This document shows, one piece after another, positions 1 to 3,400 of a stretch of DNA of 3,400 nucleotides. The first letter of the stretch is position 1. Each line of letters begins with the position of its first letter. The DNA is from a phage: sequence record PZ195128.1; one strand, 5' to 3'. Under the pieces are notes generated by a model. The model searched no databases, had not been told where the DNA came from, and worked only from the letters and a program-made list of their open reading frames with translations. The position numbers and the translations under genes were made by a program.

Positions 1-82
1 TCATCCTTGAAGGCGCTAGGAATGTTTTGCATAAGCGACTCATTTCTGCAGTCTTTTCACCATGCCGTTAGGTTTAGGTGAC

Positions 83-98
83 GGTATTTCCAAATACC
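83..98 (+). promoter_or_regulatory. Candidate RNA stem-loop directly upstream of the maturation gene ribosome binding site
   Basis: Seen in sequence: GGTATTT (83-89) is the exact reverse complement of AAATACC (92-98), giving a 6-bp stem with a 4-nt loop once the innermost pair is opened. It directly abuts GGAGG at 99-103. Function is inferred only. Confidence 0.3.
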
Positions 99-103
99 GG
101 AGG
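99..103 (+). promoter_or_regulatory. Shine-Dalgarno-like GGAGG for the maturation protein
   Basis: GGAGG lies 4 nt upstream of ATG 108. Confidence 0.5.
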
Positions 104-107
104 ATCT

Positions 108-1280
108 ATGTTTCCGAAGTCAAATATCGATAGAAATTACAAGGTTAAACTTATCTCTTACGACAAGAAAGGGAAACTCGTTTCCGACGACTCTTTTGAG
201 CAAGTCGAAAACTATCTCTTTCAAAATCGTTCGAGTACGTATAAACCTGGTTATATCCGTCGCGACTTTCGAAGACCAACGAACTTTTGGAACGGCTATC
301 GCTGTTTCAATCAGCCAGTTGGTACCTTCACTCGGAAACTCTCTGATGGTGGGAGACAAGTTGCTGATTACGGTATCGTGAACCCTAATAAGTTCACTGC
401 CAATAGTCAGCACTTGGGGGACAACATGGTAATTTACCCTGGTCCCTTCTCTATAAATATTGATCAGCGTGCTTCTGTCGAAGTCCTTAATAAACTTTCG
501 CAATCAAACCTCAATATTGGGGTTGCAATTGCCGAAGCTAAGATGACTGCTTCATTACTCGCTAAACAATCTATAGCTCTCATCAGAGCCTACACTGCTG
601 CAAAGCGCGGTAATTGGCGAGAGGTGCTTTCCCAGCTCCTCATCTCCGAACACCGTTTCAGAGCTCCTGCTAAGGATCTCGGAGGTCGATGGCTCGAACT
701 GCAGTACGGTTGGTTACCCCTCATGAGCGACTTGAAAGCTGCATATGATTTGCTTACGCAAACCAAATTGCCTGCTTTCATGCCCTTGAGAGTTACCCGT
801 ACCGTTGGCGGAACGCATAATTATAAAGTGCGCAACGTCGAATCTGCAGGGGATACATGGTCCTATAGTGACCGCTTGTCGGTGAATTACCGAATATGGT
901 ACTTCATTTCCGATCCGCGGCTCGCATGGGCCAGTTCCCTCGGGTTACTTAACCCTCTAGAAATCTATTGGGAAAAGACGCCCTGGTCGTTCGTTGTTGA
1001 CTGGTTCTTACCTGTCGGTAATTTAATCGAAGCCATGAGTAACCCTCTTGGCCTTGATATTATTTCCGGCACGAAGACCTGGCAACTGGAGTCAAAACTT
1101 AATGCGTCGCTTACGGCTTCGGGTTGGTCCGGAACTGCAAAGTTAACTGCATACGCGAAAGCATATGACAGATCTACTTTCTATTCCTTTCCCACACCTC
1201 TACCGTATGTGAAATCCCCACTTAGTGGGCTTCACTTAGCGAATGCATTAGCCCTAATCAACCAACGCCTGAAAAGGTAA
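108..1280 (+). CDS. mat: Maturation protein (A protein, pilus attachment protein), 390 aa
   Basis: The ORF track gives 78..1280 from a GTG. I place the start at ATG 108, which has GGAGG upstream and gives 390 aa, the size I recall for the GA A protein. The translation contains stretches I recognise from the MS2 A protein: [52 protein letters not shown], and the C-terminal YVKSP...[11 protein letters not shown]. Stop TAA at 1278-1280. Confidence 0.9.
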
Positions 1281-1284
1281 TTAC

Positions 1285-1288
1285 GGAG
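1285..1288 (+). promoter_or_regulatory. Shine-Dalgarno (GGAG) for the coat gene
   Basis: GGAG lies 8 nt upstream of ATG 1297 in the 16-nt maturation-coat intergenic spacer. Confidence 0.6.
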
Positions 1289-1296
1289 TTAGCCAT

Positions 1297-1689
1297 ATGG
1301 CAACTTTACGCAGTTTCGTACTCGTCGATAATGGCGGTACGGGGAATGTTACTGTCGTTCCTGTTAGCAATGCCAACGGCGTCGCTGAGTGGCTTTCTAA
1401 TAACTCGCGCAGTCAAGCTTATCGCGTGACTGCCAGTTATCGTGCGTCAGGCGCGGATAAGCGCAAATACACCATCAAACTTGAAGTACCGAAAATCGTT
1501 ACTCAAGTTGTAAATGGTGTTGAGCTGCCTATCTCCGCATGGAAGGCTTATGCCTCCATTGACCTGACCATCCCTATCTTTGCGTCGACCGACGATGTGA
1601 CCGTTATTTCCAAGTCACTCGCTGGCCTGTTCAAGGTCGGGAACCCTGTAGCCGAGGCTATCTCTTCTCAGAGTGGCTTCTACGCTTAA
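1297..1689 (+). CDS. cp: Major coat (capsid) protein, 130 aa
   Basis: The translation MATLRSFVLVDNGGTGNVTVVPVSNANGVAEWLSNNSRSQAYRVT...RKYTIKLEVPKIVTQVVNGVELP...LTIPIFA...GNPVAEAISSQSGFYA carries the hallmark levivirus coat blocks (FVLVDNGGTG, NGVAEW, SRSQAY, RKYTIK, GVELP, LTIPIFA). From memory it is near-identical to the phage GA coat protein. Size is typical (about 130 aa). Stop TAA at 1687-1689. Confidence 0.97.
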   Translation: MATLRSFVLVDNGGTGNVTVVPVSNANGVAEWLSNNSRSQAYRVTASYRASGADKRKYTIKLEVPKIVTQVVNGVELPISAWKAYASIDLTIPIFASTDDVTVISKSLAGLFKVGNPVAEAISSQSGFYA

Positions 1690-1880
1690 TGGGTCTGAAA
1701 GCAAAACATAAGGAAAACCTATGTTCCGATTCACAGAGATCGAAAAGACTCTATGTATGGATCGCACTCGCGATTGTGCTGTCCGATTTCACGTCTATCT
1801 TCAGTCATTGGATTTGGGGTCTTCTGATCCTCATTCTCCGGACTTTGATGGACTTGCCTACCTTCGTGATGAGTGTTTAA
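1689..1880 (+). CDS. lys: Lysis protein (L-type single-gene lysis protein), 63 aa, overlapping the coat stop and the replicase 5' region
   Basis: ATG 1689-1691 shares its A with the coat stop codon (TAATG). The ORF is in a third frame and overlaps the first 160 nt of the replicase gene. The product has a basic, polar N-terminus (KAKHKENLCSDSQRSKR) followed by a hydrophobic segment LYVWIALAIVLSDFTSIFSHWIWGLLILIL containing an L-S dipeptide. This resembles the MS2 L protein core (LYVLIFLAIFLSKFT). Position, size and architecture match levivirus L proteins. Confidence 0.85.
   Translation: MGLKAKHKENLCSDSQRSKRLYVWIALAIVLSDFTSIFSHWIWGLLILILRTLMDLPTFVMSV
1705..1725 (+). promoter_or_regulatory. Translational operator-like hairpin enclosing the replicase start codon (candidate coat-protein binding site)
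   Basis: Seen in sequence: 5'-AACAU-A-AGG-AAAA-CCU-AUGUU-3'. Lower stem 1705-1709 pairs with 1721-1725, one A is bulged (1710 or 1711), upper stem 1711-1713 pairs with 1718-1720, and the loop is AAAA (1714-1717). The replicase AUG (1721-1723) lies in the 3' arm, and the replicase Shine-Dalgarno AAGGA (1710-1714) lies in the bulge, upper stem and loop. The architecture (bulged purine, 4-nt A-rich loop, AUG in the 3' arm) parallels the MS2 operator ACAUGAGGAUUACCCAUGU. Confidence 0.7.
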
Positions 1881-3319
1881 CTAAACATCCCTCACTTGGA
1901 GACAGTAATTCGGACGCACGCCGTAAGGAATTGGCATATGCCAAACTTATGGATAGTGATCAAAGATGCAAAATCCAAAACAGTAACGGATACGACTACT
2001 CTCATATCGAGAGTAGCGTACTGAACGGTATACTCAAGACCGCTCAGGCCCTTGTGGCGAACTTACTTACGGGTTTTGAATCTCACTTCCTGAACGATTG
2101 TTCATTCTCCAATGGAGCCTCACAAGGGTTCAAGTTGCGGGATGCAGCGCCGTTTAAGAAGATCGCTGGGCAAGCAACCGTTACAGCTCCTGCTTATGAC
2201 ATTGCCGTGGCCGCCGTTAAAACGTGCGCGCCGTGGTATGCTTATATGCAGGAAACGTATGGCGATGAGACCAAATGGTTTCGTCGGGTATACGGCAACG
2301 GTTTGTTTTCTGTTCCGAAGAACAATAAAATAGATCGGGCTGCCTGCAAGGAGCCTGATATGAATATGTACCTTCAGAAGGGTGCGGGATCTTTTATAAG
2401 AAAACGCCTCCGCTCTGTCGGTATAGATCTTAACGATCAAACGTGCAATCAGGAATTAGCCCGACTTGGCAGCATTGATGGATCGCTCGCTACTATTGAT
2501 CTTAGTAGCGCTAGCGATTCTATCTCTGACCGTCTTGTCTGGGATTTACTTCCACCGCACGTTTATTCATACCTCGCCCGTATCCGCTCATCTTTCACGA
2601 TGATTGATGGTCGGCTACACAAGTGGGGTCTATTTTCTACCATGGGTAATGGCTTCACATTCGAGCTCGAGTCCATGATTTTCTGGGCTCTGAGTAAGAG
2701 TGTTATGCTGTCCATGGGTGTTACTGGCTCATTAGGCATCTACGGGGATGATATAATTGTCCCTGTTGAGTGTGCTCCAACTCTCCTTAAGGTATTATCC
2801 GCTGTTAACTTTCTTCCTAATGAAAGGAAGACGTTTACTACGGGTTACTTTCGCGAAAGTTGCGGTGCTCACTTCTTTAAAGGTGCCGACATGAAACCTT
2901 TTTACTGCAAGCGGCCAATGGAAACCCTTCCCGATGTCATGTTGCTATGCAACAGGATAAGGGGTTGGCAGACCGTTGGTGGAATGTCAGATCCGCGGCT
3001 CTTTCCAATTTGGAGAGAATTCGCTGATATGATTCCGCCGAAGTTTAAGGGTGGATGCAACCTGGATCGCGACACTTACCTCGTTTCACCTGATAAACCC
3101 GGTGTCACATTGGTTCGTATCGCTAAGGTACGCTCTGGTTTTAACCACGCGTTCCCGTACGGTCATGAAAATGGCCGCTACGTCCACTGGTTGCATATGG
3201 GATCGGGAGAAGTTCTCGAGACCATATCCTCCGCCAGGTTTAGGTGTAAACCTAACTCGGAATGGAGAACACAGATCCCTCTATTTCCTCAGGAATTAGA
3301 GGCCTGCGTTCTCTCCTGA
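1721..3319 (+). CDS. rep: RNA-dependent RNA polymerase (replicase beta subunit), 532 aa
   Basis: Long ORF containing the catalytic YGDD motif (GIYGDDIIVP). Extensive blocks I recognise from the MS2 replicase: DPHS.DF...AYLRDE.LTKHP.LG, FSNGAS.G.KL.DAAP.KK, VPKNNKIDRAACKEPDMNMYLQKG, SVGIDLNDQ, GS.DGSLATIDLSSASDSISDRLVW, FSTMGNGFTFELESMIFWA, RKTF..G.FRESCGAHF, KPFY, GGMSDPRL, PQE. Stop TGA at 3317-3319 followed immediately by TAG. Confidence 0.97.
   Translation: MFRFTEIEKTLCMDRTRDCAVRFHVYLQSLDLGSSDPHSPDFDGLAYLRDECLTKHPSLGDSNSDARRKELAYAKLMDSDQRCKIQNSNGYDYSHIESSVLNGILKTAQALVANLLTGFESHFLNDCSFSNGASQGFKLRDAAPFKKIAGQATVTAPAYDIAVAAVKTCAPWYAYMQETYGDETKWFRRVYGNGLFSVPKNNKIDRAACKEPDMNMYLQKGAGSFIRKRLRSVGIDLNDQTCNQELARLGSIDGSLATIDLSSASDSISDRLVWDLLPPHVYSYLARIRSSFTMIDGRLHKWGLFSTMGNGFTFELESMIFWALSKSVMLSMGVTGSLGIYGDDIIVPVECAPTLLKVLSAVNFLPNERKTFTTGYFRESCGAHFFKGADMKPFYCKRPMETLPDVMLLCNRIRGWQTVGGMSDPRLFPIWREFADMIPPKFKGGCNLDRDTYLVSPDKPGVTLVRIAKVRSGFNHAFPYGHENGRYVHWLHMGSGEVLETISSARFRCKPNSEWRTQIPLFPQELEACVLS
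1749..1838 (+). other. Predicted transmembrane segment of the lysis protein (with L-S dipeptide at 1779-1784)
   Basis: Residues 21-50 of the 63-aa product are almost entirely hydrophobic or aromatic (LYVWIALAIVLSDFTSIFSHWIWGLLILIL). Codons CTG TCC at 1779-1784 encode L-S in the lysis frame. Confidence 0.6.
2741..2752 (+). other. YGDD catalytic motif (RdRp motif C) within the replicase
   Basis: The codons TAC GGG GAT GAT at 2741-2752 encode Y-G-D-D in the replicase frame, within GIYGDDIIVP. Confidence 0.9.
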
Positions 3320-3400
3320 TAGTATCAGGACCTCCCCGGATGGGGTGGGTGTGACCGAAAGGCCACTATGGAGGTGAACCCTCCACCGCCCAAAAGGCGG
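3320..3400 (+). other. 3' untranslated region with a series of stem-loops (probably truncated at the 3' end)
   Basis: Seen in sequence: hairpin 3315-3329 (CCUGAU/AUCAGG) enclosing the replicase stop codon; 3334-3345 (CCCC-GGAU-GGGG); 3351-3366 (GUGACC-GAAA-GGCCAC with a GNRA-type GAAA loop and one mismatch); 3369-3385 (UGGAGG-UGAAC-CCUCCA); 3386-3400 (CCGCC-CAAAA-GGCGG). The window does not show a terminal C-run ending in A. Confidence 0.65.

What the first reader, a model, noticed from the sequence alone, without database searches (positions are those of the whole stretch)
1705..1725. Operator-like hairpin sequestering the replicase AUG and Shine-Dalgarno, with an AAAA loop
An 8-bp stem with a single bulged A and a 4-nt loop places the replicase start codon in the 3' arm, the same architecture as the MS2 coat-protein operator but with loop AAAA rather than AUUA. 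This is the likely site where coat dimers repress replicase translation and nucleate packaging. The loop difference would tune coat-binding specificity.
Basis: partly seen in the sequence, partly recalled or inferred. Interest (0 to 1): 0.55.

Follow-up and report, generated by a model that had tools for sequence, protein, structure and literature searches.

The report
Phage GA replicase operator hairpin
The hairpin is real, but it is the long-known coat-protein binding site (translational operator) at the replicase start codon of a GA-like group II RNA coliphage, so the finding is correct and ordinary.

Summary
The window is a near-complete genome of a group II F-specific ssRNA coliphage, 94.6% identical to phage GA (Emesvirus japonicum). 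It carries the maturation, coat, lysis and replicase genes.

The replicase AUG (1721-1723) lies in the 3' arm and the Shine-Dalgarno UAAGGA (1709-1714) in the 5' arm and loop. The hairpin survives in every folding context up to the whole 3400 nt.

It is base-for-base identical to GA 1733-1753, which the 1986 GenBank record X03869 annotates as "pot. binding site coat protein". It is invariant in all group II genomes examined. Across MS2, fr and uncultured relatives two stem pairs covary (G:C to A:U at -11:-1, G:C to U:A at -8:-3). The unpaired A-10, A-7 and A-4 stay fixed in nine of ten operator types, while -6 and -5 vary.

The window's coat keeps the MS2 RNA-contact residues and has the group II Ser at MS2 position 87. 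RNA binding by GA coat was studied biochemically by Gott, Wilhelm and Uhlenbeck (1991).

Verdict: observation confirmed, interpretation supported, already known. Caveats: the hairpin alone is weak (-4.2 kcal/mol), the eighth pair is group II-specific, and either of two adjacent A's can be the bulge.

The parts
1705..1725 (+). Translational operator (TR-type) hairpin. 5' arm 1705-1710, bulged A 1711 (or 1710), upper stem 1712-1713 with 1718-1719, loop AAAA 1714-1717, 3' arm 1720-1725.
   Evidence: MFE structure in all contexts. Identical to GA 1733-1753, annotated as coat-protein binding site. Covariation across relatives. Local hit of Rfam RF02359 at 1704-1724.
1709..1714 (+). Shine-Dalgarno UAAGGA of the replicase gene, lying in the 5' arm, the bulge and the first loop base.
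   Evidence: Six-base complementarity to the 16S rRNA 3' end, 6 nt upstream of the AUG.
1721..3319 (+). Replicase (RdRp beta subunit) gene, 532 aa. Its AUG 1721-1723 is in the 3' arm of the hairpin.
   Evidence: ORF list. Corresponds to the GA replicase CDS 1749-3347.
1297..1689 (+). Coat protein gene (130 codons), the trans-acting repressor that binds the hairpin as a dimer.
   Evidence: ORF. 97% identical to GA coat. PDB 1GAV and 1UNA are the closest single-copy coat chains, E about 1e-78. RNA-contact residues conserved.
1689..1880 (+). Lysis gene (63 aa). It overlaps the coat stop (UAAUG) and the replicase start. The whole hairpin lies inside it, as codons K6-S13.
   Evidence: ORF. GA annotation 1717-1908. 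Codon read-out KHKENLCS.
1697..1702 (+). GAAAGC just 5' of the operator. It is predicted to pair with 1392-1397 in the coat gene as a counterpart of the anti-Min Jou sequence.
   Evidence: Paired in the MFE of the 1000-nt and whole-window folds. Homologous segments in relatives stay complementary with different sequences.
1392..1397 (+). GCUUUC in the coat gene, within the W-L-S codons that follow the conserved Ala-Glu (AEW motif). Predicted long-range partner of 1697-1702 and counterpart of the Min Jou sequence.
   Evidence: The MS2 Min Jou interaction, 1427-1433 with 1738-1744, is described in PMC11339067.

Best explanation
Nucleotides 1705-1725 are the replicase translational operator of a GA-type (group II) levivirus.

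The plus-strand RNA folds into a weak hairpin that holds the replicase Shine-Dalgarno and AUG. Three unpaired adenines are presented: the bulge at -10 (or -11), and loop positions -7 and -4. A coat-protein dimer recognises these on its beta-sheet surface. Once coat protein has accumulated, a dimer binds and stabilises the hairpin, which blocks 30S initiation on the replicase gene (late repression). The same complex serves as the highest-affinity packaging and assembly-nucleation site.

Early in infection, access to the same ribosome-binding site is probably gated by a long-range pairing between 1697-1702 and 1392-1397. Ribosomes translating the coat gene would open it, as in MS2 Min Jou coupling.

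Shown here: the structure, its identity to the GA site, covariation, and conservation of the coat's contact residues. Inferred from homology and literature: coat binding, repression and packaging nucleation.
For: Hairpin in the MFE at every scale, with pair probabilities 0.7-0.99.

Window 94.6% identical to GA. The hairpin is identical to GA 1733-1753, annotated 'pot. binding site coat protein'.

Invariant in all group II sequences examined: 6 complete genomes plus 5 metagenomic contigs. This holds despite about 85% genome identity to KU1 and T72 and an 18+3-nt insertion just upstream.

Across 10 distinct operator sequences, -11:-1 switches G:C to A:U (4 of 10) and -8:-3 switches G:C to U:A. 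Cells paired are 90% against 21-50% for slid registers. None of 500 shuffles reaches the observed covariation score. RNAalifold recovers the same 7-bp consensus.

A-10, A-7 and A-4 are invariant in nine of ten types while -6 and -5 vary. That is the pattern expected for protein-contacted bases rather than structural ones.

The coat retains, in MS2 numbering, T45, S47, R49, K57, T59, K61, Y85 and T91.

Literature: operator function and the critical A-4 and unpaired purine in MS2, GA and PRR1 (PMC3561173, citing Gott et al. 1991). TR repression plus Min Jou coupling in MS2 (PMC11339067). TR as assembly initiation site (PMC4751978).
Against: No binding or repression experiment exists for this particular strain.

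The hairpin is thermodynamically weak (-4.2 kcal/mol), and its z-score in longer local contexts is unremarkable.

Within group II the entire 1703-1770 region is nearly invariant because the lysis and replicase frames overlap it. Within-group conservation alone therefore says little.

The Rfam MS2 model scores 18.1 bits, below its gathering score of 40.

In MS2, disrupting TR does not abolish virion formation (PMC4751978). The packaging-nucleation role is therefore not exclusive to this hairpin.
Confidence: 0.93

Rival explanations
1. The hairpin is a passive structure that damps replicase initiation by occluding the SD and AUG, and coat protein plays no specific part.
For: The SD and AUG are indeed base-paired in the hairpin. 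RNA structure at ribosome-binding sites is a general control device in leviviruses, as with the Min Jou interaction.
Against: At -4.2 kcal/mol the hairpin is too weak to block initiation by itself. The bases conserved across the clade are the unpaired A's, which add nothing to stability, whereas stem pairs are free to covary. The coat's RNA-contact residues are conserved. GA coat-RNA binding is documented (Gott et al. 1991, cited).
Confidence: 0.03
2. The sequence is conserved only because it is read in two overlapping frames (lysis codons 6-13 and the replicase start). On this view the palindrome is incidental.
For: The hairpin lies wholly within the lysis ORF and overlaps the replicase start. 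The flanking region to about 1770 is equally invariant within group II.
Against: Outside group II the sequence changes yet pairing is kept through double compensatory changes. Chance expectation for this architecture is 0.05 per window, and it sits exactly on the AUG. The same register is present in MS2 and fr, where the lysis gene starts inside the coat gene (MS2 1678, fr 1691) rather than at the coat stop.
Confidence: 0.02
3. The element works mainly as one of many dispersed packaging signals for capsid assembly, and translational repression is secondary.
For: In MS2, many operator-like stem-loops contact the capsid, and TR disruption does not prevent virion formation (PMC4751978; PMC10610835).
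Against: Its placement exactly over the replicase SD and AUG is kept in every relative examined. A pure packaging signal would not need that placement. The window shows no significant excess of further strict operator-like hairpins: 3 observed against 1.06 expected, P = 0.09, and no excess of the architecture itself. The two roles are not mutually exclusive.
Confidence: 0.02

Closest known systems
Translational operator of bacteriophage GA (group II; GenBank X03869.1 nt 1733-1753; Gott, Wilhelm & Uhlenbeck 1991, NAR 19:6499)
   Same: All 21 nucleotides are identical, in the same position relative to the coat stop, the lysis start and the replicase AUG. The cognate coat protein is 97% identical.
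   Different: Nothing differs in the RNA. The coat differs from the GA reference at four residues (GA numbering A58T, G78I, A96S, I117V). One of them is MS2-numbering position 59, an RNA-contact position, where the window has Thr like MS2 and the other group II strains, while the GA reference has Ala.
MS2/R17 TR operator hairpin (Rfam RF02359)
   Same: Same register and architecture: a 7-bp stem, bulged A-10 two pairs below a tetraloop, A at -7 and -4, the AUG in the 3' arm and the SD in the 5' arm.
   Different: The loop is AAAA instead of AUUA, so -6 and -5 are A rather than U. Pair -11:-1 is A:U instead of G:C. There is an extra A:U pair at -16:+5. The stem is weaker (-4.2 against -6.0 kcal/mol). 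Because -11 is also A, the bulge position is ambiguous. The coat has Ser, not Asn, at position 87. The Rfam score is 18.1 against a gathering score of 40.
Operators of phage fr and of uncultured MS2/GA-like leviviruses (L022, L023, L025, L014, L024)
   Same: Same hairpin at the replicase AUG. L023 (coat 71% identical) has the identical core ACAUAAGGAAAACCUAUGU. L025 (coat 60% identical) also has the AAAA loop.
   Different: fr and L022 have loop AAUA. L014, L027 and L034 have loop AUAA with a U:A closing pair. L024 and L029 have one extra loop nucleotide.
PRR1, Qbeta and PP7 coat-operator pairs
   Same: The general principle is shared: a hairpin at the replicase start, bound by a coat dimer, with an unpaired purine and a loop adenine as key contacts (PMC3561173).
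   Different: Loop sizes, bulge positions and coat sequences differ. PRR1 coat (PDB 2VF9) matches the window's coat only at E = 2e-5. I did not compare the RNAs here.

Membership tests
Phage GA / group II levivirus (Emesvirus japonicum) replicase operator | Sequence identity with the annotated GA coat-protein binding site, in a genome of that species | tested here: met
   Window 94.6% identical to GA over 3400 nt. 1705-1725 matches GA 1733-1753 at 21 of 21 bases, a site annotated 'pot. binding site coat protein'.
MS2-type levivirus translational operator (TR hairpin) | Hairpin containing the replicase start codon in its 3' arm and the SD in its 5' arm | tested here: met
   AUG 1721-1723 pairs with 1707-1709, and SD UAAGGA is at 1709-1714.
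MS2-type levivirus translational operator (TR hairpin) | Single unpaired purine on the 5' side, two base pairs below a four-nucleotide loop | tested here: met
   A1711 (or A1710) is bulged, followed by G1712:C1719 and G1713:C1718, then loop 1714-1717.
MS2-type levivirus translational operator (TR hairpin) | Adenines at loop positions -7 and -4 | tested here: met
   A1714 and A1717. These are invariant across nine of ten distinct operator types. The exception is L024, which has a 5-nt loop.
MS2-type levivirus translational operator (TR hairpin) | Pyrimidine at -5 (the group I preference, recalled from the MS2/R17 literature) | tested here: not met
   Position -5 is A1716. This is the known group II difference. 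It goes with Ser instead of Asn at coat position 87.
MS2-type levivirus translational operator (TR hairpin) | Stem supported by compensatory changes among relatives | tested here: met
   -11:-1 is G:C or A:U, and -8:-3 is G:C or U:A. None of 500 shuffles reaches the covariation score, and slid registers give 21-50% paired against 90%. RNAalifold gives the same consensus.
MS2-type levivirus translational operator (TR hairpin) | Score at or above the gathering threshold of Rfam RF02359 | tested here: not met
   18.1 bits against 40, E = 0.49, as a local match to model positions 16-36 only. Model positions 1-15, 5' of the hairpin, did not align.
MS2-type levivirus translational operator (TR hairpin) | Cognate coat protein of the MS2/GA fold with conserved RNA-contact residues | tested here: met
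   Coat is 60% identical to MS2 and 97% to GA. PDB 1GAV and 1UNA match at E about 1e-78. T45, S47, R49, K57, T59, K61, Y85 and T91 are conserved.
MS2-type levivirus translational operator (TR hairpin) | Specific binding by the coat dimer and coat-dependent repression of replicase translation | not testable with these tools
   Known only from the literature on GA (Gott et al. 1991, cited in PMC3561173) and on MS2. The 1991 paper is not held in the library.

The most novel reading that the evidence does not exclude
The RNA element itself is not new. The least ordinary reading still open concerns the graded natural series recovered here. It runs through loops AUUA, AAUA, AAAA and AUAA and a 5-nt loop, paired with coat residue 87 as Asn, Ser or Asp and residue 85 as Tyr, Phe, Thr or Ile. 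This series may record step-by-step co-evolution of operator and coat specificity between group I and group II phages. This strain's Thr at MS2 position 59 (Ala in the GA reference) might also give it a measurably different operator affinity from the GA reference.
Probability: 0.2. Interest if true: 0.25.

Novelty: already known. Interest (0 to 1): 0.08.

Why it matters
It matters little as a discovery. The GA operator has been annotated since the 1986 genome sequence and was dissected biochemically in 1991. The MS2-type coat-operator pair is one of the best-studied RNA-protein interactions. The result is useful as a positive control, because the first-stage reader recovered a genuine, functionally characterised regulatory RNA from raw sequence at exactly the published coordinates. 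There are two minor practical points. No solved structure of a GA-type coat bound to its own operator was found in the PDB copy searched. The metagenomic intermediates found here offer natural variants for engineering orthogonal coat/hairpin tethering pairs.

Tried and rejected
- **Primary literature.** I tried to read Gott et al. 1991 (PMC329206), Helgstrand et al. 2002 (PMC117284) and Grahn et al. 2001 (PMC1370203). None is held. Quantitative statements about GA against MS2 operator discrimination therefore rest on secondary citation or on my own recollection, and are marked as such. Several full-text searches for GA-specific operator papers returned little or nothing.
- **Rfam.** Only a sub-threshold local hit to RF02359. 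The other hit, archaeal sR43 on the minus strand at 619-647 (E = 0.33), I reject as chance.
- **Additional operator-like packaging signals in the window.**
  - The strict architecture is not enriched: with G:U allowed, 6 observed against 10.4 expected.
  - With the three A's required, 3 observed against 1.06 expected, P = 0.09.
  - I make no claim here.
- **Pattern scan of viral contigs (ACATAAGGANNACCTATGT).** The four hits in large dsDNA-phage contigs (L015-L018) are AAGGA...ATG contexts that look like ordinary ribosome-binding sites. I judge them chance matches unrelated to leviviruses.
- **Provenance.** The exact coat protein is not on record in the assembly index. No phage record is more than 94.7% identical.
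- **First RNAduplex search for a long-range partner.** Searching the whole coat gene gave a different best duplex, 1442-1456 at -14.1 kcal/mol. That duplex is absent from the long-context MFE folds, which pair 1697-1702 with 1392-1397 instead. I set it aside.

Full report
**What the window is.** The six-frame ORF list shows the canonical levivirus layout on the + strand.
- Maturation protein: listed as 78-1280 from a GTG. The GA annotation corresponds to AUG 108.
- Coat: 1297-1689.
- Lysis: a 63-codon ORF at 1689-1880, overlapping the coat stop as UAAUG.
- Replicase: 1721-3319.

Megablast against phage records gives 94.6% identity over all 3400 nt to phage GA (X03869.1 / NC_001426), 94.6-94.7% to BZ13 strains DL10 and DL20, and about 85.7% to KU1 and BZ13 T72. 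All are Emesvirus japonicum, the group II F-specific RNA coliphages. The window corresponds to GA 29-3429, so it lacks the extreme ends. No record is identical, and the exact coat sequence is not on record in the assembly index. It is therefore another strain of a known species.

**Checking the observation.** Nucleotides 1705-1725 read AACAUAAGGAAAACCUAUGUU.
- RNAfold gives ((((((.((....)))))))) at -4.2 kcal/mol (z = -2.43; 5 of 200 shuffles fold as well).
- The hairpin is retained in the 41-, 51-, 91- and 141-nt contexts.
- It is in the MFE structures of the 250-, 600-, 1000- and 3400-nt folds, with pair probabilities 0.7-0.99.
- U1720 is shared almost equally between A1710 (0.51) and A1711 (0.48), so the single bulged A may be either -11 or -10.
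- The replicase AUG (1721-1723) pairs with 1707-1709.
- UAAGGA (1709-1714) is complementary to the 16S rRNA 3' end, lies 6 nt upstream of the AUG, and occupies the 5' arm, the bulge and the first loop base.
- A fully Watson-Crick hairpin of this architecture is expected 0.05 times per shuffled window. The only one present sits on the replicase start.

**What it is.** The GA GenBank record annotates 1733-1753 as 'pot. stem loop structure; pot. binding site coat protein'. With the 28-nt offset that is exactly window 1705-1725, and the 21 bases are identical. Rfam's 'Bacteriophage MS2 operator hairpin' (RF02359) aligns to 1704-1724 in the same structural register. It scores only 18.1 bits against a gathering score of 40, and only model positions 16-36 match.

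**Comparative evidence.** The hairpin is invariant in the window, GA, DL10, DL20, KU1 and T72, and in five metagenomic group II contigs. This holds even though KU1-type genomes carry an 18+3-nt insertion immediately upstream. Within group II this says little by itself. The element lies inside the lysis ORF (codons K6-S13) and overlaps the replicase start, and the whole stretch to about 1770 is nearly invariant.

I therefore collected more distant relatives with a coat-protein alignment and located their replicase starts. The ten distinct operator sequences fall into six types:

| Source | Coat identity to window | Operator |
|---|---|---|
| Group II and L023 | L023 71% | ACAUA-A-GG-AAAA-CC-UAUGU |
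| L025 | 60% | ACAUG-A-GG-AAAA-CC-CAUGU |
| MS2 | 60% | ACAUG-A-GG-AUUA-CC-CAUGU |
| fr and L022 | fr 60%, L022 73% | ACAUG-A-GG-AAUA-CC-CAUGU |
| L014, L027, L034 | 54-55% | ACAUG-A-GU-AUAA-AC-CAUG |
| L024, L029 | L024 69% | as the row above, with one extra loop base (GU-AAAAU-AC) |

On the alignment of these ten:
- Pair -11:-1 is G:C in six and A:U in four.
- Pair -8:-3 is G:C in eight and U:A in one. L024 also forms U:A there once its extra loop base is allowed for.
- 90% of cells are paired, against 21-50% when the 3' partners are slid.
- None of 500 shuffles reaches the observed covariation score.
- RNAalifold recovers the same 7-bp consensus.
- The outermost pair 1705:1725 forms only in the three group II rows and in L025, and is unpaired in the other six, so it is not part of the conserved core.
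- A-10, A-7 and A-4 are invariant in nine of ten types, whereas -6 and -5 vary between A and U.

Fixed unpaired bases beside covarying stem pairs are the signature of a protein-recognised hairpin.

**The protein partner.** The window's coat is 97% identical to GA coat and 60% to MS2 coat. The solved GA capsid and dimer (1GAV, 1UNA) are the closest single-copy coat chains. In MS2 numbering the RNA-contact residues V29, T45, S47, R49, K57, T59, K61, Y85 and T91 are conserved. The group II-specific differences are K43R, N55K, R83K, N87S and E89D.

Across the relatives, Asn87 occurs only with U at -5 (MS2, fr). Ser87 occurs with A-5 (group II, L023, L025) and also with U-5 (L022). Asp87 occurs with A-5 (L014 group). 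This fits N87 and E89 being specificity determinants of MS2 coat (bioRxiv 10.1101/2025.04.02.646914). It also fits the existing structures of MS2 coat with an A-5 operator (2C50) and of N87S coat with RNA (2B2G, 1ZSE), listed in PMC10610835. My recollection, which I could not verify here, is that Gott et al. 1991 and Lim, Spingola and Peabody 1994 showed two things: GA coat tolerates A or U at -5 while MS2 coat disfavours A-5, and N87S shifts MS2 coat towards GA-like specificity.

**Mechanism.** By homology with MS2, a coat dimer binds the hairpin once coat has accumulated and blocks ribosome initiation on the replicase gene (PMC11339067; PMC3561173). The complex also acts as the assembly initiation site (PMC4751978).

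The hairpin alone is weak (-4.2 kcal/mol), so 'sequestering' is effective only with protein bound.

In MS2 a second control operates. The Min Jou long-range pairing (1427-1433 with 1738-1744) hides the replicase ribosome-binding site until ribosomes translate the coat gene. In the window, folds of 1000 nt or more pair GAAAGC (1697-1702, just 5' of the operator) with GCUUUC (1392-1397, the coat W-L-S codons). This is a few nucleotides downstream of the site homologous to the MS2 Min Jou sequence.

The corresponding segments in relatives remain complementary with different sequences, read by eye from the sequences printed:
- MS2 and fr: CCAUUC with GAAUGG
- L023: AACCACU with AGUGGUU
- L025: GAAAUCCA with UGGAUUUC

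This suggests the two-part control is conserved in this strain. I treat it as an inference.

**Rivals.**
- A purely passive occluding hairpin is unlikely, given its weakness and the conservation of unpaired rather than paired bases.
- Conservation through overlapping reading frames alone is contradicted by the compensatory changes outside group II. It is also contradicted by the same hairpin in MS2 and fr, whose lysis genes start inside the coat gene rather than at its stop.
- A mainly packaging role is not exclusive of repression, and does not explain the strict placement over the SD and AUG.
- I found no significant excess of further strict operator-like hairpins in the window.

**Verdict.** Refinements:
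- The conserved core is 7 bp.
- The eighth pair is not conserved outside group II.
- The bulged A is positionally ambiguous.
- An AAAA loop is not unique to group II (L025 has it on an MS2-type stem).
- The hairpin needs bound coat protein, and probably a long-range partner interaction, to control translation.

Interest is low and the novelty class is 'already known'.

Noticed in passing
window 1392-1397 and 1697-1702: A predicted long-range pairing, GCUUUC (coat W-L-S codons) with GAAAGC (just 5' of the operator), appears in MFE folds of 1000 nt or more. The homologous segments in MS2, fr, L023 and L025 are also complementary but with different sequences. This looks like the group II counterpart of the MS2 Min Jou translational-coupling interaction.
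   Followed up: partly
L004 (KU1) 1718-1738; L005, L009-L011, L020, L021; compare window 1689-1704: KU1- and T72-type genomes carry an 18-nt insertion directly after the coat stop, where the window has the UAAUG overlap and lysis start. They also carry 3 extra nt before the operator. Their lysis CDS is annotated further downstream. L021 has AUG (CAGUAAUGGG) where KU1 has CAGCAUUGGG. The operator itself is unchanged.
   Followed up: partly
L024 about 1905-1930 and L029 (3' end of contig): An uncultured relative (coat 69% identical in L024) has the operator ACAUG-A-GU-AAAAU-AC-CAUG. It has one extra loop nucleotide, giving either a 5-nt loop with U at -4 or a 3-bp upper stem with an AAA triloop. 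Its coat has Thr85, Ser87 and Glu89. This departs from the otherwise invariant A-4.
   Followed up: no
L025 1260-1276; L022 1919-1935; L023 1799-1815: Uncultured intermediates mix group I and group II features. L025 has an MS2-type stem with the AAAA loop and coat Ser87. L022 has an fr-type AAUA loop with Ser87. L023 has the exact GA-type operator core with a coat only 71% identical.
   Followed up: partly
window 98-116: A second hairpin with a similar outline, CGGAGGAUCUAUGUUUCCG, encloses the maturation-gene SD (GGAGGA) and its AUG at 108. It needs G:U pairs and has a bulged G. It may relate to control of maturation-protein translation. I did not analyse it.
   Followed up: no
window 1297-1689 (coat codons 59, 79, 97, 118): The coat differs from the GA reference at four residues (GA numbering A58T, G78I, A96S, I117V). 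At the first of these the GA reference is the outlier: most other group II coats examined and MS2 have Thr at MS2 position 59, an RNA-contact position (L020 has Ile). At the second the GA reference is also an outlier, with Gly where the others have Val or Ile.
   Followed up: partly
L015-L018 (large dsDNA-phage contigs): The 19-nt pattern ACATAAGGANNACCTATGT also matches four large viral contigs. One is an exact ACATAAGGAAAACCTATGT in a 36.7-kb contig (L018). These are AAGGA-N6-ATG contexts that look like ordinary ribosome-binding sites, and are probably chance matches.
   Followed up: no
window 1-3400 versus GA 1-3466: The window lacks about 28 nt at the 5' end and 37 nt at the 3' end of the GA genome. 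The terminal replication hairpins are therefore incomplete.
   Followed up: no
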